A DNA stretch of 64,000 nucleotides, from IMG/VR virus record IMGVR_UViG_3300047493_000037, positions 94,713 to 158,712 of that record. The stretch is one strand, 5' to 3'. Position 1 is the stretch's first letter, and each line of letters opens with the position of its first letter. Shown piece after piece: positions 12,087 to 60,021 of this stretch. This DNA comes from a virus (taxonomy: Duplodnaviria; Heunggongvirae; Uroviricota; Caudoviricetes). A program made the position numbers and the translations under genes. Below the pieces are notes generated by a model. It saw only the letters and a list, made by a program, of their open reading frames with translations. It was not told the origin of the DNA and did not search any database.

Positions 12087-12088
12087 AC

Positions 12089-12162: not shown

Positions 12163-12174
12163 ACTTTTAAAACA

Positions 12175-12248: not shown

Positions 12249-12256
12249 TCGAAAAC

Positions 12257-12799
12257 CTAGCCACTTTCCAATTCTGTCGTCCAATACTCTAACGACTTTA
12301 AATCAACATAAGGTTCCCATTCTTTTGGCAGCACCTTCATCTTAACGATCATCTGAACCGGCAACCACTTTGGCTCAATTGGCTTCTTGAGAAGCTTCAT
12401 CTTTGCCTGCTCAGGAGTTTTGTCCTCTTTTGAGCTGTTGCATGGTCTGCATGCAGTTACGATGTTAGTCCAGTTTGTCTGGCCGCCTTGAGCCCGGGGC
12501 AACACGTGGTCGAACGTTAGCTCTTTCACGGGTTTCCTCTCTCTGCAGTATTGGCAAGTCCACTCATCTCTCATGTAGATGTTGATCCTGCTAAACTGAA
12601 CCTTTCCCTTCCTCTTGAACTTCTTAAGTTGTCTAATTACGCTAGGTAATTTCCACTCCAGATAAGCTGATCTAATCAGCTGACTAGACTCTTCTACAAC
12701 TTCTGCATCGCCGGTGACGATTCTATGCATTGCGTCCTCCCAGCTAATCACTTTGAGAGGCTCATATGTGGAATCGAGTAATAGCACTGCCATATTCAT
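12257..12799 (-). CDS. HNH homing endonuclease
   Basis: TFDHVLPRAQGGQTNWTNIVTACRPCNSSKEDK (HNH: DH...N...C..CN..K); embedded between tRNA genes. Confidence 0.8.
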   Translation of the reverse strand: MNMAVLLLDSTYEPLKVISWEDAMHRIVTGDAEVVEESSQLIRSAYLEWKLPSVIRQLKKFKRKGKVQFSRINIYMRDEWTCQYCRERKPVKELTFDHVLPRAQGGQTNWTNIVTACRPCNSSKEDKTPEQAKMKLLKKPIEPKWLPVQMIVKMKVLPKEWEPYVDLKSLEYWTTELESG

Positions 12800-12898
12800 A
12801 TCCTCTCATTATACGTTGGTGCACCAGCAAGGTAACGATCCTTGTTCCACGGATTAAAAGTCCGCTGCTCATCCTGTTAAAGCTTTCAAGTGCAAATT

Positions 12899-12973
12899 TG
12901 GTAGGACTACGGAGAATCGAACTCCGGTCTACTGGTTAAGAGCCAGCAGCTTTACCACTAAGCTATAGTCCTA
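12899..12973 (-). tRNA. tRNA-Lys: tRNA-Lys (CUU)
   Basis: Acceptor AGGACUA/UAGUCCU, D-arm GCUU-AGUGGUA-AAGC, anticodon stem GCUGG/CCAGU, loop CUCUUAA. Confidence 0.7.
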
Positions 12974-12992
12974 TGTTATTCCTTCTAAAGTT

Positions 12993-13067
12993 TGGTGGAC
13001 AGCTGGGAAATCGAATCCCACCAACCGCAGTGCAAGTGCAGTTCGCCACCTTGGTACATGGCCGCCC
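12993..13067 (-). tRNA. tRNA, tentative Ala (UGC)
   Basis: Acceptor GGGCGGC/GCUGUCC with two G.U pairs, T-arm UGGGA-UUCGAUU-UCCCA, anticodon stem CUGCA/UGCGG, loop CUUGCAC; weak D-stem. Confidence 0.4.
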
Positions 13068-13245
13068 GAATTATTTAATTGTTACTTAGTTTCCGCTAGT
13101 GTATTTATTATTACGCCCAAAGCGGGAGGCGTTTGGTAAGTGGCTTAATGCCATCAGTACCTTGAACACATGGGAGTGCGGTGGCGCAATCGCGCTGCAT
13201 CCCTTTTAGACTTGAGTGTGTGTGTACAAACGTGTTCATAAAATG

Positions 13246-13280
13246 ATTATACCGTGTATTTCCATTAGATTCAGAAATTA
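13246..13280 (-). promoter_or_regulatory. sigma70-like promoter (GGTATAAT -10) upstream of tRNA array 1
   Basis: Minus-strand reading cacgGTATAATca at 13244-13256, same motif as upstream of arrays 2 and 3. Confidence 0.45.
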
Positions 13281-13460
13281 TTTTTTAGAGTGCTCTTTTT
13301 GCAAAACGAACAGCATTACCACCATAGCAATGGGCCATAGAAGTACGCCTAGAATTAGGCCCTTCATTAGGTCTATAAAACTAGCACCATCGTAAGTCTT
13401 AAATCTGGTGATAGCTAAAATAAGGTAGAAAATCCAACCAATTAGGAGATAAGCGCTCAT
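13278..13460 (-). CDS. small membrane protein (two predicted TM helices)
   Basis: 60-aa hydrophobic ORF. Confidence 0.45.
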   Translation of the reverse strand: MSAYLLIGWIFYLILAITRFKTYDGASFIDLMKGLILGVLLWPIAMVVMLFVLQKEHSKK

Positions 13461-13843
13461 TCGATTAACTTCTTTTCTAGCTCTAAAAAGAACTGTATTT
13501 CAGCGATAACTTCATGTCTAACTTCGCTATTATCGCACGGCATCCAATCAGTCCAATCTTTGTCTTCTATTGGATTATTGTATTTTGCATACACTGAGTG
13601 TTTAACGTAAAACTTCTCATTCTCAATCATCCATCTTGCATAAGATGGGCCGGTTATTAGCCAACTTTCAAGTACATATGTTCCATCGTCGTACACAATG
13701 ATGTCTTGATCAGCGCGAGTGTTAACTCTTCCCTTAAAGATGATTCGCTTATCGGTCATTGGGCTTTTTAGGGACAGGCAACTTGCGAGAGTAACGAACA
13801 ACGCCTTGGTACGAAAGAGTTCCTTGAGGGTTGTCATATACAA
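13457..13843 (-). CDS. hypothetical protein
   Basis: 128-aa ORF, ATGA overlap with 13278..13460. Confidence 0.55.
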   Translation of the reverse strand: MYMTTLKELFRTKALFVTLASCLSLKSPMTDKRIIFKGRVNTRADQDIIVYDDGTYVLESWLITGPSYARWMIENEKFYVKHSVYAKYNNPIEDKDWTDWMPCDNSEVRHEVIAEIQFFLELEKKLIE

Positions 13844-13912
13844 GTCGAGTGTCTTCGCCGTTAGCCTTCAAATAGTTGAGACAGAGTTGAAACATGAGCG
13901 TTACTAGATATT

Positions 13913-14332
13913 TCATTTGAGCAAGTTTCTTTCCATGTTGCGACTTAAGAGCTCCTCACGAATAATTTCTACGTAAGAGGTATCGAGGGTAATAAGCTTT
14001 AGGCGATAAGCCTTGATGAGTATTTTAAGGTCGCTCTCGGGAATTCGAATGGTGTCGCTTCTCTCAAACTTGTGTTTCTTATTTATGTCCCACTCATCGA
14101 TGACAGACATCGCCTGTTCACGAATTAATTTTGCACGCGCTTGTGAAACCTGATCCCATCCTTGTAGGGCGAAAGAGATTGGCCAAAAGAACACTACCAA
14201 CGCAAGAAGGAGGCCGTCACCTTTTTCATCTAAGTCAATATGCGTTTTGCTATCGTCTGGATCAATGACGATGATGCTATATATTACAGGCATCACGAAG
14301 GCGCTAATTAGGTAGTAAGTAAACCAACTCAT
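13913..14332 (-). CDS. membrane protein
   Basis: 139-aa ORF with two hydrophobic segments. Confidence 0.55.
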   Translation of the reverse strand: MSWFTYYLISAFVMPVIYSIIVIDPDDSKTHIDLDEKGDGLLLALVVFFWPISFALQGWDQVSQARAKLIREQAMSVIDEWDINKKHKFERSDTIRIPESDLKILIKAYRLKLITLDTSYVEIIREELLSRNMERNLLK

Positions 14333-14341
14333 TGTTGATTA

Positions 14342-14545
14342 TTAGAATCGGAAATTTGTGAAGTGCGATAAGTTAATATACCAGTCTTTTGCTTTAAGAC
14401 TATTACAATCTCTACATCTAGGATTTAACCTAGACTTACTGTTTTTATCGTTTGAGAAGTTAGATTCGTCTAGATCTTGTTTGCAAGAAGAACATGTCAT
14501 TCTTGCATTATACAGTGGTGTTTCCAGCGGGGTTCGAACCCGCAT
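14342..14545 (-). CDS. small Cys-rich (zinc-ribbon-like) protein
   Basis: 67 aa with CSSCKQ...CRDCN. Confidence 0.35.
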   Translation of the reverse strand: MRVRTPLETPLYNARMTCSSCKQDLDESNFSNDKNSKSRLNPRCRDCNSLKAKDWYINLSHFTNFRF

Positions 14546-14591
14546 TTATCGATTGAAAGTCGATTTTCCTAAGCCAATTAGAAGATGGAAA
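14516..14591 (-). tRNA. tRNA-Glu: tRNA-Glu (UUC)
   Basis: Acceptor GUUUCCA/UGGAAAC, anticodon stem AUCGA/UCGAU, loop CUUUCAA, T-arm GCGGG-UUCGAAC-CCCGC. Confidence 0.7.
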
Positions 14592-14593
14592 CG

Positions 14594-14669
14594 TGGAAGC
14601 GCCAATGGGAATCGAACCCATCTTTTCGCATTGAGAATGCGAGGTCCTTAACCAATAGACGATGGCGCC
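14594..14669 (-). tRNA. tRNA-Glu: tRNA-Glu (CUC)
   Basis: Acceptor GGCGCCA/UGGCGCU, anticodon stem UCGCA/UGCGA, loop UUCUCAA, T-arm AUGGG-UUCGAUU-CCCAU. Confidence 0.65.
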
Positions 14670-14781
14670 ATTTTAAGCTGTGATGGGAGATTTAGGTGTA
14701 CGAAGTGAAAACAACGCACACCAAGCGTTCTTGCTCAGATTCCATGAATTGGATTGTGATGTTTGCGTTGTTCATGTGATT

Positions 14782-14815
14782 ATTATACCACGTTTAATTC
14801 TAATGCATCTTCTAA
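14782..14815 (-). promoter_or_regulatory. extended -10 promoter (TGGTATAAT) upstream of tRNA array 2
   Basis: Minus-strand aacgTGGTATAATaa (plus attatacc at 14782-14789). Confidence 0.5.
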
Positions 14816-15028
14816 GGCGCCGTGAGTTCTTTTGTACAGTCTTTCAGCACCTTTTTCAGCTAGTCTTTCAGTGCGATACACTGCCGTGTAAGCCATTTTG
14901 CCTTCTAACTCGCCGTCTTTGTACTCAATGACGTACTTTATCTCCGGATCTCTGCCCATCCCTACTAGCCACATGTAGGTGATAGTAGTTATGCAATAAT
15001 AGTGGCGCCACATGTCATTCACGCCCAT
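14783..15028 (-). CDS. hypothetical protein
   Basis: 81-aa ORF. Confidence 0.4.
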   Translation of the reverse strand: MGVNDMWRHYYCITTITYMWLVGMGRDPEIKYVIEYKDGELEGKMAYTAVYRTERLAEKGAERLYKRTHGALEDALELNVV

Positions 15029-15492
15029 GAAGGTTTAGTGCCGTTCTTCCAAGTAGGAGCTCTCTTGTCTGCAAGCCACTTCTCTTTCATCGTAAGCTTG
15101 TATGCCTCAACAACCTCCATATCCTTATGAGGACTGCAGTTGGCAAACGGAGTTTGAGGTCCTTGAGGCATGAGCACTCTGCCGTCGAATAGAGTGCTAA
15201 AGTATTCGTGGCACTTGTGAATTTTGCCATATCTTAAAGTGTACTGCGCGAGCAAGGAATTAAGGTGAAGAAGTAGCCATACATAATTTCCACGAGAAGC
15301 TCTCACCCAGACAGAGCACGGATGATTTGCGTGAGTTGTCTTATAAGGTCCAGCTCCTCCGGAGAGGTTAATTGCTGTAGATAGCATCTGCGTTGACTCA
15401 AGGATCATCTTGATGACGCGCTTGTCGTCAAGATGATGAGCTGAGATTGCAGGGTCGACATCTGTTACAAATATATTCATCACCAATACCAT
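15019..15492 (-). CDS. denV: T4 endonuclease V-like pyrimidine-dimer DNA glycosylase
   Basis: N-terminus MNIFVTDVDPAISAHHLDDKRV vs T4 DenV [23 protein letters not shown] and C-terminal KRAPTWKNG vs QRPTWYKYYG; similar length. Confidence 0.5.
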   Translation of the reverse strand: MVLVMNIFVTDVDPAISAHHLDDKRVIKMILESTQMLSTAINLSGGAGPYKTTHANHPCSVWVRASRGNYVWLLLHLNSLLAQYTLRYGKIHKCHEYFSTLFDGRVLMPQGPQTPFANCSPHKDMEVVEAYKLTMKEKWLADKRAPTWKNGTKPSWA

Positions 15493-15728
15493 CCAGATAA
15501 TGTTTTCTTAGCAGATTGAAGACCAAGTTTTGCTAAGATAGTGAACACTAAACCTTGTCTCACTTCGGCCATACTAGGCGTATGATAGTACTCTTCCGCC
15601 CCATAAAGAAAGTCAAAGTACTCATCCCACTTCAGCGAATCTTCTTCGCTCGCTTGTTCTTTTATAGAATCAGAAGCACTTTTTGACCTATTGTATTTGC
15701 CTTTTAATTCTTTACTATTTAAACTCAT
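15480..15728 (-). CDS. hypothetical protein
   Basis: 82-aa ORF. Confidence 0.5.
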   Translation of the reverse strand: MSLNSKELKGKYNRSKSASDSIKEQASEEDSLKWDEYFDFLYGAEEYYHTPSMAEVRQGLVFTILAKLGLQSAKKTLSGWYW

Positions 15729-15824
15729 AATTTCATTCTACTAGGTTAAGAAAAATAAATCTAATTCCATCTTGTATTTTTGAACTTTTGTGTTAGAATC
15801 TAGTTATCACCCCAAGGAGGACTT
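15729..15824. promoter_or_regulatory. divergent intergenic region (minus gene 15480..15728 / plus gene 15825..16136)
   Basis: AT-rich 96 bp with TTGAAC and TAGAAT elements and AGGAGG SD before the plus-strand ATG. Confidence 0.35.
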
Positions 15825-16136
15825 ATGAGTCAGACCGTTAATAAGGGTGCCATATCAAAGCTTTGCATCAAGAACAAAGCTCCAGGCACTATTTCCACAG
15901 GCGCAAATACAGAAGTAACACTCGACGGCCAAAAGCTAGGCGGAGTTTCTTTTCTAAAGATGGAGTTTAAACCTAAGAACGTTGTCAAGATTACTATGGA
16001 GATGTATTGTGAAGTTGAAGTCGATGTCGACGTTCAACTAGAGCAAACATCTATCAACCCAGACGAAGAGATTAAGATAGGCGATGCTGTCTATGTCTTA
16101 GGTAAGTACGAAACAGTTGGTTTCCCTAAGAAGTAA
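15825..16136 (+). CDS. hypothetical protein (plus-strand)
   Basis: 103-aa ORF with perfect AAGGAGG SD 6 nt upstream of ATG. Confidence 0.6.
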   Translation: MSQTVNKGAISKLCIKNKAPGTISTGANTEVTLDGQKLGGVSFLKMEFKPKNVVKITMEMYCEVEVDVDVQLEQTSINPDEEIKIGDAVYVLGKYETVGFPKK

Positions 16137-16229
16137 TGGCGGAAGGTAGGGGAGTTGAACCCATGGGCGTTTTTTAGGCGCCGGCAGTTTAGCAAACTGC
16201 TGTGGAAAACCGACATCCACGTACCTTCC
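16137..16229 (-). tRNA. tRNA-Ser: tRNA-Ser (GCU), class II with long variable arm
   Basis: Acceptor GGAAGGU/ACCUUCC, D-stem GUGG/CCAC, anticodon stem GCAGU/ACUGC, loop UUGCUAA, long variable hairpin; 93 nt. Confidence 0.6.
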
Positions 16230-16230
16230 A

Positions 16231-16548
16231 TTAATCCTCAAACGTTAGACCAATTGCTTGCTCAAGTGTCTTATCGATCCAGTTTTGATAGGCTGCATCA
16301 AGTATCTTTTGCTTATCTTTGTTGGCAAAGAAACTTTGCGCCCCAATCAGCCGTTTCCTGACAGTTTCTAACTTACACACCTTATCGTTTTCTATAGCTA
16401 GTAAGCGAACTGTCACCATTTGGTCATGAAATATTGGTTCTTCAGGATCTAACCTTGCAGACATGTTGTCAAAGTTAAAATACCAACAGTCTACTAATAC
16501 TTCTGTTTGTTGAACAACGTTTTGTTTCTTCTTGCTAAATGGCCACAT
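16231..16548 (-). CDS. hypothetical protein
   Basis: 105-aa ORF fitting exactly between two tRNA genes. Confidence 0.5.
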   Translation of the reverse strand: MWPFSKKKQNVVQQTEVLVDCWYFNFDNMSARLDPEEPIFHDQMVTVRLLAIENDKVCKLETVRKRLIGAQSFFANKDKQKILDAAYQNWIDKTLEQAIGLTFED

Positions 16549-16553
16549 AAATT

Positions 16554-16624
16554 TGGTGTCCCCGACAGGAATCGAACCTGCCTATCAGCTTTAGGAAAAC
16601 CGAGACCTATCCTTAGGCGGGGAC
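16554..16624 (-). tRNA. tRNA (71 nt; anticodon arm not resolved)
   Basis: Perfect acceptor GUCCCCG/CGGGGAC, T-arm GCAGG-UUCGAUU-CCUGU, CCA encoded; middle region shares GGAUAGGU element with tRNA 16811..16881. Confidence 0.45.
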
Positions 16625-16625
16625 A

Positions 16626-16702
16626 TGGTGCTCGAGATGGGAGTCGAACCCACAACACCTAGGCTCTCGACCTAGTACCTCTTCCAGTTGGGTTACTCAA
16701 GC
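16626..16702 (-). tRNA. tRNA-Leu: tRNA with Leu anticodon GAG, class-I architecture
   Basis: Acceptor GCUUGAG/CUCGAGC, anticodon stem CUAGG/CCUAG, loop UCGAGAG (C33), D-arm UAACCCAACUGGAAGAGGU. Confidence 0.45.
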
Positions 16703-16810
16703 AAATTTTTTACTCTTGTACACCGGGTACGACATAAATACCCGCCATTCAAGTTTTTCGTCTATTACTTCTAGCTTTTTAAGCAAATTTAATAGATCTG
16801 TCATCATATC

Positions 16811-16881
16811 TGGTGGTCCCAGAAGGAGTCGAACCTTCTTCCCAAGCTTAGAAGGCTCGGTACCTATCCACAGGTGGGACC
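16811..16881 (-). tRNA. tRNA (71 nt; anticodon arm not resolved)
   Basis: Perfect acceptor GGUCCCA/UGGGACC, T-arm GAAGG-UUCGACU-CCUUC, CCA encoded. Confidence 0.45.
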
Positions 16882-16967
16882 AATATTTGCCCGACTAGGA
16901 GTTCAACTACCGCGCCGGGACTTCAGCGTCGCCAACGTCTTTTCAGGGCGTTCTTACGCTTTTATCT

Positions 16968-17044
16968 TGGTGCTCCGAGAGGGATTCGAACCCTCAACAT
17001 TTCGTTTTTGAGACGAACGACTCTTCCAGTTGGTCTACCGAAGC
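16968..17044 (-). tRNA. tRNA-Leu: tRNA with Leu anticodon CAA, class-I architecture
   Basis: Acceptor GCUUCGG/UCGGAGC, anticodon stem UUCGU/ACGAA, loop CUCAAAA, D-arm UAGACCAACUGGAAGAGUC, T-arm GAGGG-UUCGAAU-CCCUC. Confidence 0.5.
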
Positions 17045-17050
17045 AAATTT

Positions 17051-17126
17051 TGGTGCCCACCATCGGATTCGAACCGATACTGTACGCGTTTTAAGTGCGC
17101 TGACTCTGCCATTGGTCTACGCGGGC
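17051..17126 (-). tRNA. tRNA-Leu: tRNA with Leu anticodon UAA, class-I architecture
   Basis: Acceptor GCCCGCG/GGUGGGC (6/7), loop CUUAAAA, D-arm UAGACCAAUGGCAGAGUC, T-arm AUCGG-UUCGAAU-CCGAU. Confidence 0.5.
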
Positions 17127-17132
17127 AAATTT

Positions 17133-17209
17133 TGGTGGGGCCATTCCATTAGTCGGACTGCAGCGACCCCTAGTTGGACTAATCAACTCTCGACGATCTA
17201 TCGAGAATT
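17133..17209 (-). tRNA. degenerate tRNA-like element (CCA end and acceptor-like hairpin, no T-loop)
   Basis: Begins like neighbouring tRNAs (aaattttggtgggg) but folds only into GGGGUCG...UGGCCCC hairpin plus short stem-loops. Confidence 0.2.
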
Positions 17210-17300
17210 TGGTGGAGCGTGAAGGATTTGAACCATTCGTCTACCAACCCTACTTATTTTTCGACAGCGGTTTTACAGACCGTCGTAGGGAACACACTCC
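17210..17300 (-). tRNA. tRNA-Tyr: tRNA-Tyr (GUA), class II
   Basis: Acceptor GGAGUGU/ACGCUCC, anticodon stem CGGU/ACCG, loop CUGUAAA, long variable region, T-loop UUCAAAU; 91 nt. Confidence 0.5.
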
Positions 17301-17305
17301 AAATT

Positions 17306-17391
17306 TGGCGGAAGGTGGACGAATCGAACGCCGGACCTTTCGGTCCCCTCAGGGTTCAAACCTGATTGCCAACCATTTAGCGGCACCTTCC
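17306..17391 (-). tRNA. tRNA-Ser: tRNA-Ser (UGA), class II
   Basis: Acceptor GGAAGGU/ACCUUCC, anticodon stem UCAGG/CCUGA, loop UUUGAAC, variable hairpin GGACC-GAAA-GGUCC. Confidence 0.6.
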
Positions 17392-17597
17392 ATAAACTAA
17401 TTGAGACAAGCTATAGCCGCGATTCTGTCTTCGCCTCGCGGCGGAGAACATCATTCGTCTAGGAGAGTTGTCGCCAACTCCCTCAAGCTTGGTACCCGTA
17501 AGCACTACGAGCCGTAGTATAGCTTACCTATTTCCAATTGCTGCACGTAAAGATTGCTCGTTTCAACCCGCACTGAAGCGGTTACGTTCCTGTAGCT

Positions 17598-17999
17598 CTA
17601 ATTCTCAGGTCGCCCTGGGCAGTTGTTATCTGCTACGTTGCTCTCACAGTCGCGAACTTCCTCGACCCTTGGAAGGATCGCGATGTTCTCGCTCATCTCA
17701 AACTTATTAGACTTCTTACTATTTTCCTCTAATGTTAGAAGTTGTAAATTCCAAGGCACATGAAGTCCGCTAACATTTTCGCCATTCACTGGGACGATAT
17801 GGTCCACAGTTAGGTTTAACTCTTTAGCTGATTTATAAAGAGCCTTCATTTTATCTTTTTGCTCTTTTGTTAACCATTTTGGACTAGCCAAACGTCGTTT
17901 CGCCCTATATTCAGCAGTTAAAAAGTTCTTAATATGTTGATTTTCACTTCGCCATTTTCTTTGACGACCTTTTTCGTCAGTATCTGCTCTATATTGCAT
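17598..17999 (-). CDS. HNH homing endonuclease
   Basis: LTVDHIVPVNGENVSGLHVPWNLQLLTLEENSKK (HNH motif); between tRNA arrays. Confidence 0.7.
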   Translation of the reverse strand: MQYRADTDEKGRQRKWRSENQHIKNFLTAEYRAKRRLASPKWLTKEQKDKMKALYKSAKELNLTVDHIVPVNGENVSGLHVPWNLQLLTLEENSKKSNKFEMSENIAILPRVEEVRDCESNVADNNCPGRPEN

Positions 18000-18054
18000 A
18001 ATTCTTTTTTTATTAGACTTATAATAATTTGCACCCGCACCTCTTGTGCAAATT

Positions 18055-18131
18055 TGGTGCCGATTGTTGGTTCCGCCCCAACGATCTTCTCCTCTTCAGG
18101 GAGACGCTTCCACTAGGTTAGCTTAATCGGC
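18055..18131 (-). tRNA. tRNA-Phe: tRNA-Phe (GAA) with non-canonical T-loop (GGCGGAA)
   Basis: Perfect acceptor GCCGAUU/AAUCGGC, anticodon stem UCUCC/GGAGA, loop CUGAAGA; T-stem GUUGG/CCAAC, but the loop lacks the UUCRANY consensus. Confidence 0.45.
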
Positions 18132-18140
18132 ATGTAACTT

Positions 18141-18216
18141 TGGCTGGGAAGGCAGGGATCGAACCTGCGACGTCTTGATTAACAGTCAAGCGGACTACCA
18201 ACTGTCCTACTTCCCA
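18141..18216 (-). tRNA. tRNA-Asn: tRNA-Asn (GUU)
   Basis: Acceptor UGGGAAG/CUUCCCA, D-arm GGAC-AGUUGGUA-GUCC, anticodon stem CUUGA/UCAAG, loop CUGUUAA, T-arm GCAGG-UUCGAUC-CCUGC. Confidence 0.7.
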
Positions 18217-18412: not shown

Positions 18413-18442
18413 ATTATACCACGTGTTTTTATTAAGTCTCAA
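18413..18442 (-). promoter_or_regulatory. sigma70-like promoter TTGAGA-18-TGGTATAAT upstream of tRNA array 3
   Basis: Minus-strand reading TTGAGActtaataaaaacacgTGGTATAAT; -10 = complement of 18413-18418, -35 = complement of 18437-18442. Confidence 0.6.
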
Positions 18443-18713
18443 TTATTTTTCTAAGTGCTAATTCAGCATCTAAAAGACGATATATTTCTTCTGACTTTTC
18501 CCAAGTATGCCATCGATCTAGTTCTACTTGGCGTGAATACTCTAATTTGTCATGTTGCAGTCGCCAATAGCTTCTATCGGTGTAAGTCCAATGAAGATAC
18601 TTATAGGTTCCGTCTATGTAGAAAACAGCCGTAAAAGATTTACCTTCCAAGCGTGGGTTTTGCTCTACATATGAAACCAATATCTCATCACTGAATTTGC
18701 TCATTGCCTTCAA
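18432..18713 (-). CDS. hypothetical protein, small paralog family B (copy 3)
   Basis: 93 aa; FYIDGTYKYLHWTY...W...KLEY...ELALRKIIE shared with the two upstream copies. Confidence 0.55.
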   Translation of the reverse strand: MKAMSKFSDEILVSYVEQNPRLEGKSFTAVFYIDGTYKYLHWTYTDRSYWRLQHDKLEYSRQVELDRWHTWEKSEEIYRLLDAELALRKIIET

Positions 18714-19011
18714 TCATGTCGTAAGTTGCTACTGCCAGCTCTAACTCTTCTGGTATACCAGAGGTTGTAAGTACTTCCTCTTCCCAGTCGTGCCAATGAG
18801 TGTGATGCTGTCCATTAACAGGATCACCATTTGCTTCTTGACTGCCAGCTATCCAGTAAAGCTTTTTGTCTGCAAGTCTCCAAAACCAATAAACGCCTTC
18901 TGCCCAGTTGTCGCCACGATAGGAACCATCTCTATAGAATCTTAGAGTTATAGGATTGTTGCGTGGATCTGTGTCAACAACTGTGTAAACTAGCAGGTCA
19001 TCTTTGTTCAT
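18688..19011 (-). CDS. hypothetical protein, small paralog family B (copy 2)
   Basis: 107 aa; RFYRDGSYRGDNW...YWFWRLADKKLYW motif. Confidence 0.55.
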   Translation of the reverse strand: MNKDDLLVYTVVDTDPRNNPITLRFYRDGSYRGDNWAEGVYWFWRLADKKLYWIAGSQEANGDPVNGQHHTHWHDWEEEVLTTSGIPEELELAVATYDMIEGNEQIQ

Positions 19012-19289
19012 TTTTCAAGTATGTTTCTAAGAGCCAGTAAGCCCGTGAGTTCTTCTGCCCAACATGGATTGTTGGTACCTGCCCAAGGTATAAAGGTTTT
19101 ATCATCAGTGTGCCTATAATATAGCCGACCGTCTATTACAGTCCAACTACTGCCAATTGCACTTCTTTCCATTAGATTTTTACTTCCATCTATGTGGACC
19201 CTGTCGTATGTTCCGTCTACGTAGAATGTGTAAACTCTATCTTTATCGGGCAAGGACTTAACAAGAAGAACTTCTTTATCTTCGCTCAT
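19008..19289 (-). CDS. hypothetical protein, small paralog family B (copy 1)
   Basis: 93 aa; FYVDGTYDRVHIDG...W.VIDGRLYY...LLALRNILE. Confidence 0.55.
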   Translation of the reverse strand: MSEDKEVLLVKSLPDKDRVYTFYVDGTYDRVHIDGSKNLMERSAIGSSWTVIDGRLYYRHTDDKTFIPWAGTNNPCWAEELTGLLALRNILEK

Positions 19290-19311
19290 CTATTGATATT
19301 TAGAATCGGAA

Positions 19312-20223
19312 TTACTTACCGGTTGCGTGCTTTGCGATTGAGTAACAGTACTTCGAGAAGTTAGTCTTCTGAAGCTTGTTATCGTTTAGAAACTGTGAGA
19401 GCCAGTCAGGATAGTTGCCACCGTGATGCTTGATCTCAACTATGATGTGCTCCTTGGGAGAATAGTTGTCGATCATAGACATGAGAGCGCTCTTCTCTTC
19501 ACTAGCCTTGCTAAGCTCAGCGCTGATCCCGCTAGGGATAACATCGAGAACCTTATACTGAACTCCCTCGTCAAATGTTACCCTAAGTCCTGCATCGTTA
19601 GCAGTGCCGTCTGTGTAAGCGCGACGAACATACTCAGTCTCGCAAGAGGGACGGAGGTGGAAGAGTTCTAAAGCTTGATTGATGTCAGCCACGCGTTTCA
19701 CCAAGTCTGGGAGAGCAACGTTGGGATTCATCTTGGCTAGTTGAATGGTTGGAGTAAGTGGAGCACCCTTCTTAAAGGTCTCCATCGTGTCCTTAGGAAC
19801 CTTGATGCGAAACTTGTCAGAGATGTCGCCGTGTTTTGCCTTGATCTCTAGGAAAGCGAAGTCGTTCTTCTGCAGCTTCCCGTTAGGTGCGTACTCTCTA
19901 GTCCTGAGTTTAAACCTGCTGTTTGCCTTGGACATATGATGTTGAACCATGTCAAGGTTAGAGGAATCAAAGTAGACGGACTTCATTAAGTTGAAGTTGG
20001 TGCCCTTATCTGGATAATCAGCCTTCATGTGCTTGCTAAGGAGTCTAACAAGCTCATCCTTAAAGGCCTTTGGGATCAAGTACTTATCTTCAAAACGTCT
20101 AAATAAAGAAGTATCAGAAGACTTCATCAAACCTTCTACGATGTACTTATCTGCGTAAGATTTTGCGAATGTCTCTGTCGTGATTGGTTCTGGTGTTGCC
20201 CACTGATTATTGTTCTTATGCAT
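19312..20223 (-). CDS. VTC/CYTH-like triphosphate tunnel metalloenzyme domain protein (polyphosphate-polymerase-like)
   Basis: 303 aa; RFEDKYLI start motif plus alternating charged strands (FKLRTREY, AFLEIKAK, LRVTFDEG, IIVEIKHH) typical of TTM/VTC domains; assignment tentative. Confidence 0.5.
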   Translation of the reverse strand: MHKNNNQWATPEPITTETFAKSYADKYIVEGLMKSSDTSLFRRFEDKYLIPKAFKDELVRLLSKHMKADYPDKGTNFNLMKSVYFDSSNLDMVQHHMSKANSRFKLRTREYAPNGKLQKNDFAFLEIKAKHGDISDKFRIKVPKDTMETFKKGAPLTPTIQLAKMNPNVALPDLVKRVADINQALELFHLRPSCETEYVRRAYTDGTANDAGLRVTFDEGVQYKVLDVIPSGISAELSKASEEKSALMSMIDNYSPKEHIIVEIKHHGGNYPDWLSQFLNDNKLQKTNFSKYCYSIAKHATGK

Positions 20224-20235
20224 CTTTCTATTATA

Positions 20236-20664
20236 TCATTCTTCAATATCTAGGTCAAATGCCATCTCCATGAGGCGACTCATGAGTGCATCTGAGTCAA
20301 GCATAAATTGCTGCCTAGTTGCGAGCTTGTCTTTTTCTTTGCTTTCGATGCGATCGTCTGGGTCGCTCCACGAAGTTCTCTTTTGATAAAAGCACCAAAT
20401 GTAAAGTGGATCGTGAAGCTGCGCATAAACGTTCTCAAAATGTTTAACAAGCTCGCGGCCGCGCATCTTGTGGTAACCTTTTACGCCTTGCTTTAACGCA
20501 GTCTCTAAGGCACTAACGATGCTGCATGTTGAGCAGATTTCTATGTCAACAAGTATAGCAGAAATATCCTTGTGAAGAGCTTTCTTTCTTAAGATGAGCT
20601 CTCTAGCTTTCTTCATGGCTTGCTTACGTTTTAAGTTTCTTTCTTTCATTGCCGCGTTATCCAC
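20236..20664 (-). CDS. hypothetical protein
   Basis: 142-aa ORF, basic N-terminus. Confidence 0.55.
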   Translation of the reverse strand: MDNAAMKERNLKRKQAMKKARELILRKKALHKDISAILVDIEICSTCSIVSALETALKQGVKGYHKMRGRELVKHFENVYAQLHDPLYIWCFYQKRTSWSDPDDRIESKEKDKLATRQQFMLDSDALMSRLMEMAFDLDIEE

Positions 20665-20815
20665 TCAGGTCTTCCTATGATGCCCCATTTAAGTCCATGT
20701 GCACTAACCCAACCTTTTTGGTTTAATGACTTTAGTTTGAACAACATGTCCAATAAGTACGTGGTTGATTTGAGTTTTATTGAGACCTTTTGTAGGTCTC
20801 GTTCATATTTACTCA

Positions 20816-21595
20816 TCATTTGCTCTGATAATACTTCTTGCCAGGATAAACCAGGCACGTCAGCGGACGATTACCCTTGCCGCAACCAGTATCGATGAAA
20901 GCTCTATCCTTAAATATGCGAGGGTTCTTGTAGTGCCCAGGTTGATGACCGCAAACCCTGAACTTGTCGATGCAAGGAATGGCTTTGTCCTCGTCGGTGA
21001 ATTGCCATAAAATCTCGTATTCCAACTTCTCTAGGAGATAGTGGAAGTTTGGGTTGTTTGCGCGTTCTTTATACTCTTCCTCGTAGTAATCTCCACCATT
21101 CATCATGACAGCAGTGTAGTCAAGAGGAGCGTGTGTTGCTAGGATCTCATTGGTCTCGTAGTAAGGTATCATGCGCGATGTGATCTCTTTGAAGCCCTTG
21201 CTCATTAGGGCTTGAGTGATCGTGTCCGGGTTGATGTCTGGCAAGTTCCACTTATCCTTGTAGTCGTTAAGCGTTACCTGCAAGTAGCTCATCCAGCCAT
21301 TGCCACCGCCCATGAGATAGTGCTGAAGCATCCAGTCGTGGTTGCCTCTAATAAAGAAGACTTGGTCTGGATATTTCTTAGCGAGATCAACTAACGCCTC
21401 TACAGTGAGAGCAGCTTGTGCACCGCGATCTACTAAGTCTCCGCAGAATACAATATGGTCTTCCGGAGTTATGAGAGGTAGAATCTGGTCGAGCACGTCC
21501 ATCAGCTTGTCAGCTTCATTATGAACATCGCCAAATAGATACACCTTGCCGAAGGGATGATAGAGAAGTCGATGACCGTATTGGATGTCACTCAT
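20816..21595 (-). CDS. calcineurin-like metallophosphoesterase (lambda Ser/Thr phosphatase / ApaH-like)
   Basis: GDVHNE...VFCGDLVDRG...FIRGNHD metallophosphatase motifs; 259 aa. Confidence 0.85.
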   Translation of the reverse strand: MSDIQYGHRLLYHPFGKVYLFGDVHNEADKLMDVLDQILPLITPEDHIVFCGDLVDRGAQAALTVEALVDLAKKYPDQVFFIRGNHDWMLQHYLMGGGNGWMSYLQVTLNDYKDKWNLPDINPDTITQALMSKGFKEITSRMIPYYETNEILATHAPLDYTAVMMNGGDYYEEEYKERANNPNFHYLLEKLEYEILWQFTDEDKAIPCIDKFRVCGHQPGHYKNPRIFKDRAFIDTGCGKGNRPLTCLVYPGKKYYQSK

Positions 21596-22621: not shown

Positions 22622-23176
22622 TTATTCTTTTGATTCTACGTCGTTATTATTTATCCAATTTGAAAGATCATTGGGGTGCATCTGGTCAAGCAGTGTCAAC
22701 AATTCTTGATCATTAGTTTCTTGAGCTTTAACCAAACACATTGTGTAAAATTGCTCATCCGTAAGATCTGTTTTCTTTAAGCGCTTGCGCCAATTGGCTA
22801 GCTTCTTCTCATCAACGTGATGACGACCTCTATTAAGCTTTTCTGGTACCATACGAGTATTGGAAGCTGCGTAACCTTTTCCATTGTTCTTACGATCTGG
22901 CGACAGTTTTTGTCCAGTCTTCTTTTCCGCTGATTGAGTCTGTTTGACGATAGATTCTCTACTGCCCAACCCCGAAGACTTCTTGTGTGCTGTTCCATTC
23001 TTGCCCTTTTGGCGGCGCAAGGCATCGTCTGCCTTTGTTTGCGCTCTTTGCCAGGATCCTGGCTTCTTCTTATCGCTAGATAACTTGTCTAAGTGATGTC
23101 TGCAGCGACCCGCAGGATTGCTAGAGTTTGCGCTGGCTCCACCACATCTAGGGCATTTTTTCTCAAGAGGTTCCAT
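22622..23176 (-). CDS. basic protein with N-terminal zinc ribbon (CPRCG...CRHH)
   Basis: 184-aa ORF, Lys/Arg-rich. Confidence 0.5.
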   Translation of the reverse strand: MEPLEKKCPRCGGASANSSNPAGRCRHHLDKLSSDKKKPGSWQRAQTKADDALRRQKGKNGTAHKKSSGLGSRESIVKQTQSAEKKTGQKLSPDRKNNGKGYAASNTRMVPEKLNRGRHHVDEKKLANWRKRLKKTDLTDEQFYTMCLVKAQETNDQELLTLLDQMHPNDLSNWINNNDVESKE

Positions 23177-25453: not shown

Positions 25454-26854
25454 TCATCTGCGCCCCTTGTTGGCTGCGGTATCCGGAATTTGAACTGTAT
25501 CCCCTAAACGTTTCAAAGGATGGTCTTTGGTCCCGCCTTTAGAGATGATGAACAACGTAGTTGGCCACTTCTCACCAGGCTTCATCCAAGACTCCACGGG
25601 AACATCGCCGTAGCATCCGTCGGTAATAACCACGCTGAGATCCGGCTTCTTTTTGAGGATTTCCGCCATCACTGGAGTGAGGTCAGTGCCTCCACTCTGG
25701 ATGTCCTCGCGCTTGATGCGCGTACCAACGCGGTACTCCTCATTCTTGTATAGAGCTGTGTGAAAGAAACCAAGTTTGCACTTGCGTGCACCAACCCTAA
25801 GGAACTGATCCACCACCTCGAGAAACTCGTTAGCTTCCTCGATGGAGATCGACCCAGAAGTATCGATGAAGTTCTGCAACTTAGGCAAATCGCCAACCTT
25901 AGTTCCTGGAGCTTTGTTGCCAAAGCGCTTACTCTTGCGAGTCCAGGTGTTCTTGCGATCGTGACCTGCAGCGTGCTTCTTCATAGCCAAGAGCAAGAGA
26001 GCTTTGTAGTTCAGCTCTGCACGGCGAGACTTGATATCCTCAAGAAGCTCCTTGACAGAGTCAGGCAAGCTCGAGTAGTCAAGGCGAGCCTTAACCATGG
26101 CGCGCTTGACAAGCTCCTCGGTGGCATCGAGCATCTCGCCTTCTTCAGCAGCTCCATCCCACATGTGCTCGTCGAGAGTCTGAGGCAAATCGCCTGTGTC
26201 AGCTCCACCACCGGCATTGCCTTCTCCATCGCCTTCACACTCGTCATCTTTGTCAGGGTCGTCAAAGCGCTGAAGCAACTTCTCGTAATAATATTCCATG
26301 GTTTTGTTCTTGTCCCAAGGAATCTGCTTCTGAGTCTTAACGTCGATGTCAAAATAGTCTTCGACAAAGATGCCGCGACCTGGACACATGTCATTCTCAC
26401 AAGGCTTGCGCTCCTCAGGCTTAGGGCACTGAGTGCAACCTTTTGGCAAGTTCTTGATGTACTGATTGATCGCCATGTCTGCTGCAACGTTCATCAGCAT
26501 GCGCTTGCGAGCGGAGATCTTGAGGAAGGGAACACGGAGTGGATGTTTGTGAGTAATGTGGCTCAACTCATGGAGTAAGACCGCTTTCTGCTCAAGAAGA
26601 TTGAGCTTCTTGCAGAAGAAATATGGGTTGATGATCATGTCCCAGCGCTTTGCATCAGTGTTAAACATGATGCCTGCAGTTGGGATGACGTGCCCATAGC
26701 TGATCGTGAGGCACTGAAGAACAGAACCAAGGAATGGGTGAGTCTTGGAACACTCGTAGATGGCCGAAGCCAACGCACGCGTCTTCAACTCAACCGAAAC
26801 TTGCTCGTGATCCAACAACTCTTTAGTAATCTTTGGACGAACGCGTGATGACAT
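25454..26854 (-). CDS. VWA-domain protein with N-terminal putative HExxH metallopeptidase domain (CobT-like / MoxR partner)
   Basis: LLHELSHITHKH (HExxH) N-terminal; C-terminal MIDAS DTSGSIS...T...D; 466 aa; lies next to MoxR ATPase gene. Confidence 0.75.
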   Translation of the reverse strand: MSSRVRPKITKELLDHEQVSVELKTRALASAIYECSKTHPFLGSVLQCLTISYGHVIPTAGIMFNTDAKRWDMIINPYFFCKKLNLLEQKAVLLHELSHITHKHPLRVPFLKISARKRMLMNVAADMAINQYIKNLPKGCTQCPKPEERKPCENDMCPGRGIFVEDYFDIDVKTQKQIPWDKNKTMEYYYEKLLQRFDDPDKDDECEGDGEGNAGGGADTGDLPQTLDEHMWDGAAEEGEMLDATEELVKRAMVKARLDYSSLPDSVKELLEDIKSRRAELNYKALLLLAMKKHAAGHDRKNTWTRKSKRFGNKAPGTKVGDLPKLQNFIDTSGSISIEEANEFLEVVDQFLRVGARKCKLGFFHTALYKNEEYRVGTRIKREDIQSGGTDLTPVMAEILKKKPDLSVVITDGCYGDVPVESWMKPGEKWPTTLFIISKGGTKDHPLKRLGDTVQIPDTAANKGRR

Positions 26855-59727: not shown

Positions 59728-60021
59728 TTAGATATTATTAGGATCGGATTCTTGGTCAAGCACAGAGTCCACGGCGTCCATGAATTCGAGCTCTTGCTGC
59801 CATTCACTAACAATATTTGATATTTTTATCATGTCATCAACCTCATCAAAGAATTTGCGCCAACCATCATAGTTATTAGGTTGATATAGTAATCCGCCCG
59901 CAGTCATCCTCCAGCGCCACTTTTCTGGGATGCTATTTCTAATGTAAGTACCATCTTCAAAGAATGTAAACACTATTTCACAACTATAAAATTGACTACC
60001 AACAATCTTTAGCTCTCTCAT
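59728..60021 (-). CDS. hypothetical Trp-rich protein
   Basis: 97-aa ORF. Confidence 0.5.
   Translation of the reverse strand: MRELKIVGSQFYSCEIVFTFFEDGTYIRNSIPEKWRWRMTAGGLLYQPNNYDGWRKFFDEVDDMIKISNIVSEWQQELEFMDAVDSVLDQESDPNNI

What the first reader, a model, noticed from the sequence alone, without database searches (positions are those of the whole stretch)
18432..21595. Tandem triplication of a ~95-aa protein next to a VTC/CYTH-like triphosphate-tunnel protein and a calcineurin-like phosphoesterase
Three consecutive genes (19008..19289, 18688..19011, 18432..18713) share F-Y-x-DG-T/S-Y, W and KL-Y motifs and a C-terminal L-x-L-A-x-x-x-I-E helix. They lie immediately downstream of a 303-aa TTM (VTC/CYTH)-like enzyme gene, a 142-aa ORF and a lambda-phosphatase-like metallophosphoesterase. 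TTM enzymes make or break polyphosphate and nucleotide triphosphates, and metallophosphoesterases can cleave cyclic or oligonucleotide signals. Diversified tandem small-protein arrays in phages are often anti-defence or superinfection-exclusion factors. The combination is not a described system.
Basis: inference. Interest (0 to 1): 0.55.

Follow-up and report, generated by a model that had tools for sequence, protein, structure and literature searches.

The report
Phage-encoded stand-alone polyphosphate polymerase-like enzyme
A large uncultivated phage carries a soluble copy of the enzyme core that yeast uses to make polyphosphate, usually beside an ordinary phage phosphatase and, in some relatives, followed by tandem copies of a small orphan protein; the three are neighbours in a variable region, not a demonstrated system.

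Summary
All six ORFs exist on the minus strand. The 303-aa protein is a VTC-type triphosphate-tunnel enzyme. It scores Pfam PF09359 at E=4e-34. Its AlphaFold model matches the yeast Vtc4 polyphosphate polymerase best, and the Vtc4 tunnel residues are conserved. The 259-aa protein is a lambda-phosphatase/ApaH-like PPP metallophosphatase.

The three small genes are true paralogues of an orphan family of about 90-113 aa. These proteins are acidic, beta-rich and end in a C-terminal helix. The window holds five copies, not three.

The "system" reading is only partly supported. I compared 11 related metagenomic phage loci (VTC 56-82% identical).
- The phosphatase lies near VTC in 7 of 8 informative loci.
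- The 142-aa ORF is present in 5 loci.
- The small paralogues follow VTC in only 4 loci.
- The slot downstream of VTC holds other cassettes elsewhere, and one contig is a six-copy paralogue array.
- Similar phosphatases occur in 150 cultured phages, none of which gave a VTC match.
- Nothing links the locus to cyclic-oligonucleotide signalling.

The new point is a phage VTC domain that lacks the membrane partner (DUF4956) found beside every cellular homologue I examined. The best reading is cytoplasmic polyphosphate synthesis during infection. Its purpose is unknown.

The parts
19312..20223 (-). Stand-alone VTC-domain (Vtc4-type triphosphate tunnel) protein, 303 aa, pI 9.15. No SPX domain, no transmembrane segment. 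Putative cytoplasmic polyphosphate polymerase.
   Evidence: PF09359 E=4.1e-34. A family profile hits Vtc4 3g3q over the whole domain at E=6e-20, better than the non-catalytic Vtc2/Vtc3. AF2 pLDDT 84; the Foldseek top 13 are all VTC tunnels, E 9e-15 to 1e-11. Tunnel residues are invariant in 16 homologues. 62 homologues were found, mostly at 55-88% identity on phage-like contigs.
20816..21595 (-). PPP-family metallophosphatase (lambda NinI / ApaH / PrpE-like), 259 aa. Motifs GDVHN, GDLVDRG and GNHD are present.
   Evidence: PF00149 E=1.5e-16. phrog_246 E=4.8e-30. Sub-threshold PrpE/ApaH/PrpA matches. PDB best hits are RLPH2, PP1, PP2A and lambda PP. About 25% identical homologues in 150 cultured phages. 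Motifs read from the translation.
20236..20664 (-). 142-aa protein of unknown function between phosphatase and VTC. Basic N-terminal helix, conserved acidic C-terminal helix.
   Evidence: Homologues sit in the same position in L001, L002, L007 and L016. No Pfam, NCBIfam, PHROG, PADLOC or PDB match.
20646..20858 (-). Possible small ORF (70 aa as listed) in the gap between phosphatase and the 142-aa gene. Uncertain.
   Evidence: Listed. A weak homologue lies in the same gap of L016 (29% over 69 aa, E=3e-7). No family match.
19008..19289 (-). Small paralogue S1, 93 aa, pI 5.3.
   Evidence: Leave-out family profile E=1e-8. Its stop overlaps the start of S2.
18688..19011 (-). Small paralogue S2, 107 aa, pI 4.4.
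   Evidence: Leave-out family profile E=1.3e-16. BLASTP to S3 E=8e-7.
18432..18713 (-). Small paralogue S3, 93 aa from the TTG or 90 aa from the ATG at 18704, pI 5.9.
   Evidence: Leave-out family profile E=5.6e-20. AF2 model with pLDDT 88: five to six strands plus a C-terminal helix.
13457..13843 (-). Dispersed fourth member of the small family (128 aa as listed; the family core is residues 39-127 of the stop-to-stop ORF 13460-13867), inside the tRNA region.
   Evidence: Family profile E=2.4e-8. Sequence.
59728..60021 (-). Dispersed fifth member of the small family, 97 aa.
   Evidence: Family profile E=7.7e-8. Sequence.
22622..23176 (-). 184-aa strongly basic protein (pI 9.8) with an N-terminal CxxC motif. 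The most constant upstream neighbour of VTC in the clade.
   Evidence: Homologues at 58-82% identity upstream of VTC in L001, L002, L003, L006, L015, L017, L018 and L020. No family or cultured-phage match. pI.
20230..20258 (-). Sigma-70-like promoter consensus match (TTGACC-17-TATAAT, TG extended) just upstream of the VTC start.
   Evidence: 11 of 12 matches. A consensus match only, not evidence of function.
18413..18442 (-). Second sigma-70-like promoter match, right after S3 and ahead of tRNA-Asn (18141-18216).
   Evidence: A consensus match only.

Best explanation
The window comes from a roughly 177-kb uncultivated tailed phage. The flagged stretch lies in an accessory-gene region between a conserved DUF2201 block and the tRNA arrays.

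**VTC enzyme.** The core gene encodes a soluble, stand-alone Vtc4-type triphosphate-tunnel enzyme. It keeps the basic tunnel lining and the catalytic lysine and glutamate of the yeast polyphosphate polymerase. It has lost, or never had, both the SPX regulator and the membrane partner (DUF4956 in bacteria, Vtc1-type helices in yeast). The most likely activity is transfer of the gamma-phosphate of ATP onto phosphate, pyrophosphate or a growing chain, which would make polyphosphate in the cytoplasm of the infected cell. This is inferred from homology, not shown.

**Phosphatase.** The neighbouring metallophosphatase belongs to an ordinary NinI-like phage family with its active-site motifs intact. 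It is usually but not always adjacent to VTC.

**Small proteins.** They are an orphan, fast-diverging family of acidic beta-plus-helix proteins. They form tandem arrays of one to six copies in variable slots. One such slot is the position after VTC.

The three components are neighbours inherited through shared gene order. They are not a demonstrated functional unit.
For: **Phage origin**
- 26 tRNA genes.
- Dense same-strand small ORFs and HNH endonuclease hits.
- An IMG/VR relative of 176.5 kb.
- Three independent contigs of 176.5-180 kb.

**VTC identity**
- Pfam PF09359.
- A profile hit to Vtc4 at E=6e-20 over the full domain.
- An AF2 model with pLDDT 84 whose 13 best PDB matches are all VTC tunnels. 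Other TTMs are about nine orders of magnitude weaker.

**Residue conservation**
- R43, K47, R107, R109, E126, K128, K137, R139, Y198, R200, R214, E263, K265, S290 and K291 are invariant across 16 homologues down to 26% identity.
- By alignment: K47=K200, R107/R109=R264/R266, K128=K281, Y198/R200=Y359/R361, R214=R373, E263=E426, S290/K291=S457/K458.
- K458 is named the catalytic lysine in PMC4641920.
- The isolated Vtc4 enzyme makes polyphosphate from ATP and Mn2+ in vitro (PMC4641920).

**No membrane partner**
- No hydrophobic segment in the neighbouring proteins, except a borderline non-conserved one in the 142-aa ORF.
- All six cellular-type loci (L004, L010-L013, L019) have a 148-229-aa membrane protein immediately downstream of VTC. 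It matches DUF4956 at E=9e-15 in L019 and is sub-threshold in three others.

**Independence of the parts**.
Against: - No biochemical data exist for any prokaryotic or viral VTC-domain protein that I could find.
- One position differs from Vtc4. The invariant E45 aligns with Vtc4 T198, so it keeps one glutamate of the ExExK motif. Hydrolytic TTMs use that motif for a second metal (PMC4641920). A hydrolase activity therefore cannot be excluded.
- The phosphatase stays within three genes of VTC in 7 of 8 informative loci. This includes L003, where the order relative to the 184-aa gene differs. Some functional coupling is therefore possible.
- The paralogues follow VTC in four separate loci (window, L006, L007, L020). 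That is more often than a random position in a 177-kb genome would give.
- Two strong promoter-like sites bracket exactly VTC plus S1-S3.
Confidence: 0.55

Rival explanations
1. VTC and the PPP-family phosphatase, perhaps with the 142-aa protein, form a polyphosphate make-and-break pair. This would mirror yeast VTC plus the PPP-superfamily endopolyphosphatase Ppn2. Polyphosphate would be built early to capture phosphate and lower free Pi. It would later be hydrolysed to feed phage DNA synthesis.
For: The phosphatase is adjacent or within three genes of VTC in the window, L001, L002, L003, L015, L016 and L017. Ppn2 belongs to the PPP superfamily and acts only as an endopolyphosphatase (PMC7381174). 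Two cellular VTC-DUF4956 loci also sit beside phosphoesterases: ENPP-type in L011 and Metallophos/5'-nucleotidase in L014. The window is rich in nucleotide-supply genes such as RNR, two thymidylate synthases and NAMPT.
Against: All supporting loci belong to one phage lineage with generally conserved gene order, so adjacency may simply be inherited. L006 has VTC with no phosphatase in 6.5 kb upstream. The same phosphatase family is present in 150 cultured phages, none of which gave a VTC match. Its best sequence matches are protein phosphatases and Ap4A hydrolases. Similarity to Ppn2 itself was not tested.
Confidence: 0.22
2. The locus is an anti-defence module. The TTM and/or the phosphoesterase would destroy or sequester nucleotide immune signals, or deplete a nucleotide. 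The diversified small proteins would be inhibitors of host defence or superinfection-exclusion factors.
For: The small proteins are acidic (pI 4.3-5.9), orphan, tandemly amplified and fast-diverging (about 25-45% identity between copies, arrays of 1-6). This pattern is typical of phage counter-defence genes, which is an inference from general knowledge. The phosphatase has a weak hit to PADLOC candidate PDC-S10 (E=1.2e-5). A candidate NAD-reconstitution gene pair lies in the same window.
Against: The TTM is specifically Vtc4-like, not CYTH-cyclase-like. From my own knowledge, the known cyclic-nucleotide-degrading anti-defence enzymes use 2H or metallo-beta-lactamase folds, not the calcineurin fold found here. 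The small proteins gave no PADLOC, Pfam, PHROG, PDB or BFVD match. The components do not co-vary.
Confidence: 0.1
3. The VTC-domain protein is a hydrolase (tripolyphosphatase, NTP triphosphatase or polyphosphatase) rather than a polymerase. It would consume host polyphosphate or nucleotides.
For: Most characterised TTMs are hydrolases. Close structural similarity to Vtc4 did not predict polymerase activity for AtTTM3 (PMC4641920). The invariant E45 keeps one acidic residue of the ExExK motif.
Against: Only one residue of the acidic patch is present. R43 and K265 align with Vtc4 R196 and K428. By motif register, which is my inference, these are positions where hydrolytic TTMs carry glutamates. 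The catalytic-lysine equivalent K291 is invariant, whereas mutating the corresponding lysine of AtTTM3 had little effect on its tripolyphosphatase activity. Sequence and structure place the protein inside the VTC family, well apart from CYTH and ThTPase.
Confidence: 0.13

Closest known systems
Yeast Vtc4 catalytic tunnel domain (polyphosphate polymerase of the VTC complex; PDB 3G3Q/3G3R)
   Same: Same Pfam family (PF09359). Full-length profile alignment at E=6e-20. Best structural match (Foldseek E=9e-15, TM about 0.6). The tunnel residues are conserved, including the catalytic lysine, the RxR pair and the metal-binding glutamate.
   Different: Only about 19-21% identical. No SPX domain. No transmembrane domain and no Vtc1-type partner, so no coupled translocation. 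E45 stands where Vtc4 has T198. There is a clade-specific 38-residue N-terminal extension, modelled with low confidence. It is encoded by a phage.
Bacterial VTC-domain plus DUF4956 gene pairs (uncharacterised; here in Bacteriovoracaceae, Oligoflexia and Elusimicrobiaceae MAGs and in the record MT835527)
   Same: These are the closest cellular relatives, at 30-45% identity (25% for MT835527). They have the same domain length and the same invariant residues, including E45.
   Different: Every cellular locus examined has a membrane protein directly downstream. It is DUF4956 at E=9e-15 in L019 and sub-threshold in L011-L013. The phage locus has none. Phage loci instead carry variable small soluble or unrelated genes at that position.
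Lambda NinI / PPP-family bacterial phosphatases (PrpA/B, PrpE, ApaH; phrog_246)
   Same: Calcineurin-like fold family, the three N-terminal PPP signature motifs and the later His motifs. Widespread in large lytic phages.
   Different: About 25% identity to cultured-phage members. The first motif reads GDVHN rather than GDxHG. The substrate is unknown.
Yeast Ppn2 (PPP-superfamily endopolyphosphatase acting on VTC-made polyphosphate)
   Same: Same enzyme superfamily as the neighbouring phosphatase, and the same pairing logic of synthase plus metallophosphatase (PMC7381174).
   Different: Ppn2 is vacuolar and Zn-dependent. The resemblance is a lead, not a test.

Membership tests
VTC domain / Vtc4-type polyphosphate polymerase (TTM superfamily) | Sequence match to Pfam PF09359 above the gathering score | tested here: met
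   118.6 bits against a cut-off of 23, E=4.1e-34, covering residues 43-298.
VTC domain / Vtc4-type polyphosphate polymerase (TTM superfamily) | Closed beta-tunnel fold with a C-terminal plug helix, closest to Vtc4 among TTMs | tested here: met
   AF2 pLDDT 84, pTM 0.81. The Foldseek top 13 are Vtc4/Vtc2/Vtc3 at E 9e-15 to 1e-11. CYTH and ThTPase score 6e-6 or worse.
VTC domain / Vtc4-type polyphosphate polymerase (TTM superfamily) | Conserved basic tunnel lining and catalytic residues (Vtc4 K200, R264, R266, K281, Y359, R361, R373, E426, S457, K458) | tested here: met
   The equivalents K47, R107, R109, K128, Y198, R200, R214, E263, S290 and K291 are invariant in 16 homologues and align in register with Vtc4. 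The Vtc4 residue list comes from my knowledge of Hothorn et al. 2009. K458 as the catalytic lysine is stated in PMC4641920.
VTC domain / Vtc4-type polyphosphate polymerase (TTM superfamily) | Absence of the acidic patch (second metal site) that marks hydrolytic TTMs | tested here: inconclusive
   R43 and K265 are basic, as in Vtc4. The invariant E45 aligns with Vtc4 T198 and keeps one Glu of ExExK. The fourth patch position could not be mapped without the AtTTM3 sequence.
VTC complex (membrane-coupled synthesis and translocation) | Transmembrane domain or partner (Vtc1-type helices in eukaryotes, DUF4956 protein in bacteria) | tested here: not met
   No hydrophobic segment in VTC or in S1-S3. 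There is a borderline, non-conserved one in the 142-aa ORF. No DUF4956 hit in neighbours. The partner is present in all six cellular-type loci.
VTC complex (membrane-coupled synthesis and translocation) | SPX regulatory domain | tested here: not met
   The 303-aa protein has only the VTC domain. Some public sources label it an 'SPX domain protein', which appears to be a generic annotation label.
VTC domain / Vtc4-type polyphosphate polymerase (TTM superfamily) | ATP-dependent synthesis of polyphosphate | not testable with these tools
   Requires an enzyme assay.
PPP-family metallophosphatase (lambda NinI / ApaH / PrpE-like) | Pfam PF00149 match and signature motifs GDxHG, GDxVDRG, GNH[DE], plus downstream His ligands | tested here: met
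   PF00149 at 61.9 bits against a cut-off of 21.5. phrog_246 E=4.8e-30. GDVHN (22-26), GDLVDRG (52-58), GNHD (84-87), ATHAP and CGHQP were read from the translation. The first motif has N in place of G.
Known cyclic-oligonucleotide-degrading anti-defence enzymes (Acb1, Apyc1 and similar) | 2H-phosphoesterase or metallo-beta-lactamase fold; match to the known families | tested here: not met
   The phosphoesterase is calcineurin-like. There is no PADLOC or Pfam hit to such families for any gene of the locus. The fold assignments of Acb1 and Apyc1 come from my own knowledge.
PH-like fold (for the small paralogues) | Significant structural match to a beta-sandwich capped by a C-terminal helix | tested here: inconclusive
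Virion or structural protein families (for the small paralogues) | Match to any PHROG, Pfam or structural family of virion proteins | tested here: not met
   No significant PHROG, Pfam or NCBIfam hit; the only hit was phrog_22470 at E=0.075 for S1. No tblastn hit in 50,697 phage records.

The most novel reading that the evidence does not exclude
A lineage of large environmental phages reprograms host phosphate economy with its own polyphosphate cycle. A soluble Vtc4-like polymerase would build cytoplasmic polyphosphate, and the adjacent PPP phosphatase would mobilise it. Alternatively, polyphosphate would act as a polyanionic effector against host proteins. In either case the amplified small acidic proteins would be a new family of host-directed inhibitors. 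This would be the first functional prokaryote-world VTC polymerase and the first viral polyphosphate synthase.
Probability: 0.2. Interest if true: 0.7.

Novelty: new variant of a known kind. Interest (0 to 1): 0.45.

Why it matters
VTC-type polyphosphate polymerases are known only from eukaryotic work. Bacterial VTC-domain proteins are uncharacterised, and I found no report of a phage one. A soluble enzyme of about 300 aa with no partner, conserved in about 60 phage sequences, would be a convenient minimal system. It could test whether the VTC domain alone makes polyphosphate outside eukaryotes. It could also show what a virus gains from doing so, for example phosphate capture in phosphorus-poor habitats, control of host proteolysis or chaperoning, or interference with nucleic-acid enzymes. 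The small-protein family is a clean example of tandem amplification and divergence in a phage accessory slot, and a candidate pool for host-directed inhibitors. None of this has been shown. On present evidence the gene cluster is a neighbourhood, not a system.

Tried and rejected
1. **Near-identical phages.** Megablast of the locus against 50,697 phage records found nothing, so no annotated relative exists.
2. **VTC in cultured phages.** tblastn gave one hit, MT835527. It is a VTC+DUF4956 pair flanked by NrdD/NrdG and an ABC-F ATPase in an UNVERIFIED record. I did not count it as a phage VTC.
3. **Small paralogues.**
   - Pfam, NCBIfam, PHROG and PADLOC gave nothing.
   - The long repeat proteins hit by the first profile (P0066, P0069, P0073, P0074) match only a YNDGT-like repeat motif. 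I set them aside as spurious.
4. **142-aa ORF.** The word-based homologue search found only itself. A five-sequence profile found nothing in the PDB or Pfam.
5. **A hidden membrane partner.** I looked for a DUF4956 or Vtc1 analogue among the phage neighbours. None is conserved. TM proteins after VTC in L015, L018 and L020 are unrelated to each other.
6. **RNA triphosphatase, adenylate cyclase or ThTPase readings of the TTM.** Rejected on structure ranking.
7. **Other polyphosphate genes in the window (PPK2, PPX).** Ten further mid-size ORFs gave proteases, ThyX or nothing.
8. **Literature.** Searches for phage VTC, PF09359, DUF4956 and polyphosphate combined with anti-phage terms found nothing relevant.

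Full report
**1. What is in the sequence**

The flagged stretch lies in a run of minus-strand genes. In transcription order these are:
- a 184-aa basic protein (22622-23176);
- 105-aa, 123-aa and 51-aa ORFs;
- a 259-aa metallophosphoesterase (20816-21595);
- a possible 70-aa ORF;
- a 142-aa ORF (20236-20664);
- the 303-aa VTC protein (19312-20223);
- three small genes: S1 (19008-19289), S2 (18688-19011) and S3 (18432-18713);
- tRNA-Asn (18141-18216), an HNH endonuclease and more tRNAs.

The window carries 26 tRNA genes. It also encodes thymidylate synthases, ribonucleotide reductase, an ATP-dependent ligase, a NAMPT-like enzyme, a DUF2201 protein and several proteases. It has no close relative among 50,697 deposited phages. 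The VTC protein is found with 100% identity on a 176,837-bp contig. Close relatives lie on contigs of 176,504, 180,015 and 211,169 bp, one of which is an IMG/VR viral genome. This is therefore an uncultivated phage of about 177 kb.

**2. Checking the observation**

The ORFs are as described. Pairwise BLASTP between the three small proteins is weak (E = 8e-7, 4e-4, 0.025). A profile search of 1.84 billion representative proteins recovered a small, coherent family of proteins 89-113 aa long. Their shared core reads RFYxDGTYRCDHW ... W+I.DGKL.W ... W..W ... LEAELAL..II.

I rebuilt the profile from the nine non-window members only and searched all 724 six-frame ORFs of the window. It found exactly five ORFs:
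- S3 (5.6e-20), S2 (1.3e-16) and S1 (1e-8);
- two more copies at 13457-13843 (2.4e-8) and 59728-60021 (7.7e-8).

The paralogy is real, and the family has five members in this window, three of them tandem. The proteins are acidic (pI 4.3-5.9) and have no hydrophobic segment.

**3. The 303-aa protein**

- Pfam PF09359 (VTC) matches at E = 4.1e-34.
- A single-sequence search of PDB sequences found nothing. A profile of 16 homologues hit the yeast Vtc4 catalytic domain over its full length at E = 6e-20. The non-catalytic Vtc2 and Vtc3 scored lower.
- The AlphaFold model built on that alignment has pLDDT 84. Its 13 best Foldseek matches in the PDB are all VTC tunnel domains (E 9e-15 to 1e-11). CYTH "adenylate cyclases", an archaeal TTM and thiamine triphosphatase follow at 6e-6 or worse. 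The mimivirus capping triphosphatase scores 5e-3.

The residues invariant across homologues down to 26% identity align in register with the functional residues of Vtc4. The register uses the full-length chain 8i6v_E, where profile position 37 corresponds to residue 189.

| Phage protein | Yeast Vtc4 |
|---|---|
| K47 | K200 |
| R107 / R109 | R264 / R266 |
| K128 | K281 |
| Y198 / R200 | Y359 / R361 |
| R214 | R373 |
| E263 | E426 |
| S290 / K291 | S457 / K458 |

PMC4641920 names K458 the catalytic lysine. It reports that only Vtc4p, among four TTMs tested, made polyphosphate from ATP and Mn2+. It also reports that hydrolytic TTMs carry an acidic patch where Vtc4 has basic residues.

In the phage protein, R43 and K265 are basic like Vtc4 R196 and K428. 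The invariant E45, however, aligns with Vtc4 T198. One glutamate of the ancestral ExExK motif is therefore retained. I read the protein as a polymerase-type TTM, with the caveat that this one position leaves a hydrolytic activity open.

**4. What is unusual about it**

The closest cellular homologues (30-45% identity) are in Bacteriovoracaceae, Oligoflexia and Elusimicrobiaceae MAGs. A further cellular contig, L004, is 37% identical. In all of these, and in the only deposited "phage" record with a VTC match (MT835527, an UNVERIFIED scaffold with NrdD/NrdG and ABC-F neighbours), the VTC gene is immediately followed by a 148-229-aa membrane protein. That protein matches DUF4956 at E = 9e-15 in MT835527. 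The match is below threshold in three MAGs. This mirrors the eukaryotic arrangement, where synthesis is coupled to a membrane channel.

The phage protein has no such partner. It also has no SPX domain and no transmembrane segment. If it is active, it would release its product into the cytoplasm. I found no paper describing a phage or bacterial VTC-domain enzyme. Environmental studies do mention viral ppk genes.

**5. The phosphoesterase**

- PF00149 matches at E = 1.5e-16, and phrog_246 "NinI-like serine-threonine phosphatase" at E = 4.8e-30.
- There are sub-threshold matches to PrpE, ApaH and PrpA/B.
- The best PDB sequence matches are RLPH2, PP1, PP2A and lambda phosphatase.
- The PPP signature motifs are intact (GDVHN, GDLVDRG, GNHD, then ATHAP and CGHQP).
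- Homologues at about 25% identity occur in 150 cultured phages: Staphylococcus and Listeria myoviruses and Sinorhizobium phiM12-like phages. None of these appeared in the VTC search.

It is therefore an ordinary, widespread phage accessory phosphatase of unknown substrate.

**6. The small proteins**

**7. Do the parts belong together?**

I compared related loci whose VTC proteins are 56-82% identical to the window's.

| Locus | Gene order around VTC |
|---|---|
| L001 | phosphatase - 142-aa gene - VTC, then two unrelated small ORFs and tRNAs; no S |
| L002 | phosphatase - 174 aa - 142-aa gene - VTC - 81 aa - PTH2; no S |
| L003 | divergent phosphatase - 80 aa - 184-aa gene - 34 aa - VTC; no S |
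| L006 | 184 - 105 - 123 - VTC - 74 aa - S - S; no phosphatase and no 142-aa gene in 6.5 kb upstream |
| L007 (L008 and L009 carry the same arrangement) | 142-aa gene - VTC - S - S, plus another S 4 kb on |
| L015, L017 | phosphatase directly adjacent to VTC |
| L016 | phosphatase - small ORF - 142-aa gene - VTC - 77 - 83 |
| L018 | 184-aa gene - VTC - HSP20 on the opposite strand |
| L020 | 184-aa gene - VTC - 76-aa membrane protein - 123-like - S |
| L021 | a 1.8-kb contig made of six consecutive S paralogues |

The tally:
- The phosphatase lies near VTC in 7 of 8 informative loci.
- The 142-aa gene is present in 5 loci.
- S genes follow VTC in 4 of 11 loci.
- The 184-aa basic protein lies upstream in every locus with enough flank.

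The slot after VTC holds at least three other kinds of small gene. All these phages share overall gene order from DUF2201 onward, so adjacency by itself says little.

My verdict is that VTC is the constant element. The phosphatase is a frequent neighbour that may or may not cooperate with it. The S genes are a mobile, amplifying family that often lands in the variable slot behind VTC.

Two points argue for some linkage, and I record them as unexplained. First, two sigma-70-like sites with 11 of 12 matches bracket exactly VTC plus S1-S3. Second, S arrays recur at this slot in four loci.

**8. Mechanism I commit to**

- *Shown:* the fold, the family and the conservation of catalytic residues.
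- *Inferred:* the enzyme transfers the gamma-phosphate of ATP to a phosphate acceptor and builds polyphosphate in the infected cytoplasm.

The physiological role is open. The options, in my order of preference, are:
- phosphate capture and buffering for a genome-replication burst, which fits the many nucleotide-supply genes nearby and the possibility that the PPP phosphatase acts like yeast Ppn2 (PMC7381174);
- modulation of host proteins by polyphosphate;
- interference with host nucleic-acid enzymes.

The anti-defence and cyclic-nucleotide reading has no specific support.

**9. Novelty and score**

The enzyme belongs to a known family. The stand-alone, partner-less, phage-encoded form is a new variant, and the small family is an orphan. 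It is worth an enzyme assay, but it is not a demonstrated new system. Interest: 0.45.

Noticed in passing
window 36401-37867 (-) and 37864-38655 (-): A NAMPT/NAPRTase-like protein (PF04095, E=2e-37) lies next to, and overlaps by 4 nt, a phosphoribosyltransferase/PRPP-synthetase-like protein. From memory, this pairing resembles the phage NAD+ reconstitution pathway NARP1 (Adps + Namat) that counters NAD-depleting defence. I did not test it further.
   Followed up: partly
L021 1-1768 (logan SRR28123328_1430447): This short contig consists of six consecutive, overlapping genes that all belong to the small S family (85-104 aa; profile E from 2e-24 to 6e-5). It is the largest array seen.
   Followed up: partly
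window 22622-23176 (-): A 184-aa very basic protein (pI 9.8, 38 K+R) with an N-terminal CxxC motif. It is the most constant upstream neighbour of VTC in all related loci (58-82% identity). It matched no family and no cultured phage. A polyanion-binding partner for a polyphosphate maker is conceivable but untested.
   Followed up: partly
window 9930-18216: 24 of the 26 tRNA genes are clustered here in several arrays, interspersed with small ORFs and HNH endonucleases. One S-family copy (13457-13843) sits inside this region.
   Followed up: no
window 29895-30722 (+), 47395-48132 (-), 48187-49008 (-), 25454-26854 (-): An unusual number of protease-like genes for one phage window: ClpP, a trypsin-like peptidase, a subtilase and a DUF2201 metallopeptidase/VWA protein.
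   Followed up: no
window 3340-4194 (-) and 51035-51910 (-): Both a ThyA-like (PF00303) and a ThyX (PF02511) thymidylate synthase are encoded in the same window.
   Followed up: no
L001 5759-6151; L002 7322-7705: Relatives carry a PTH2-type peptidyl-tRNA hydrolase (PF01981, E=1e-31) close to the VTC gene. It is absent from this stretch of the window. Other relatives carry PagL, peptide deformylase, HSP20, IMPDH, NT5C and PfkB genes nearby. The region is therefore an accessory-gene hotspot.
   Followed up: no
L011 4054-5774; L014 7056-9077: Cellular VTC-DUF4956 pairs sit next to an ENPP-type phosphodiesterase and a CotH kinase (L011), and next to a Metallophos/5'-nucleotidase (L014). This hints at a phosphate-related context for the uncharacterised bacterial VTC modules.
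   Followed up: partly
window 51743-53407 (+): The ribonucleotide reductase large-subunit match is split into three stretches within a 554-aa ORF, and it lies on the opposite strand from most genes. It may be interrupted or truncated; I did not examine it.
   Followed up: no
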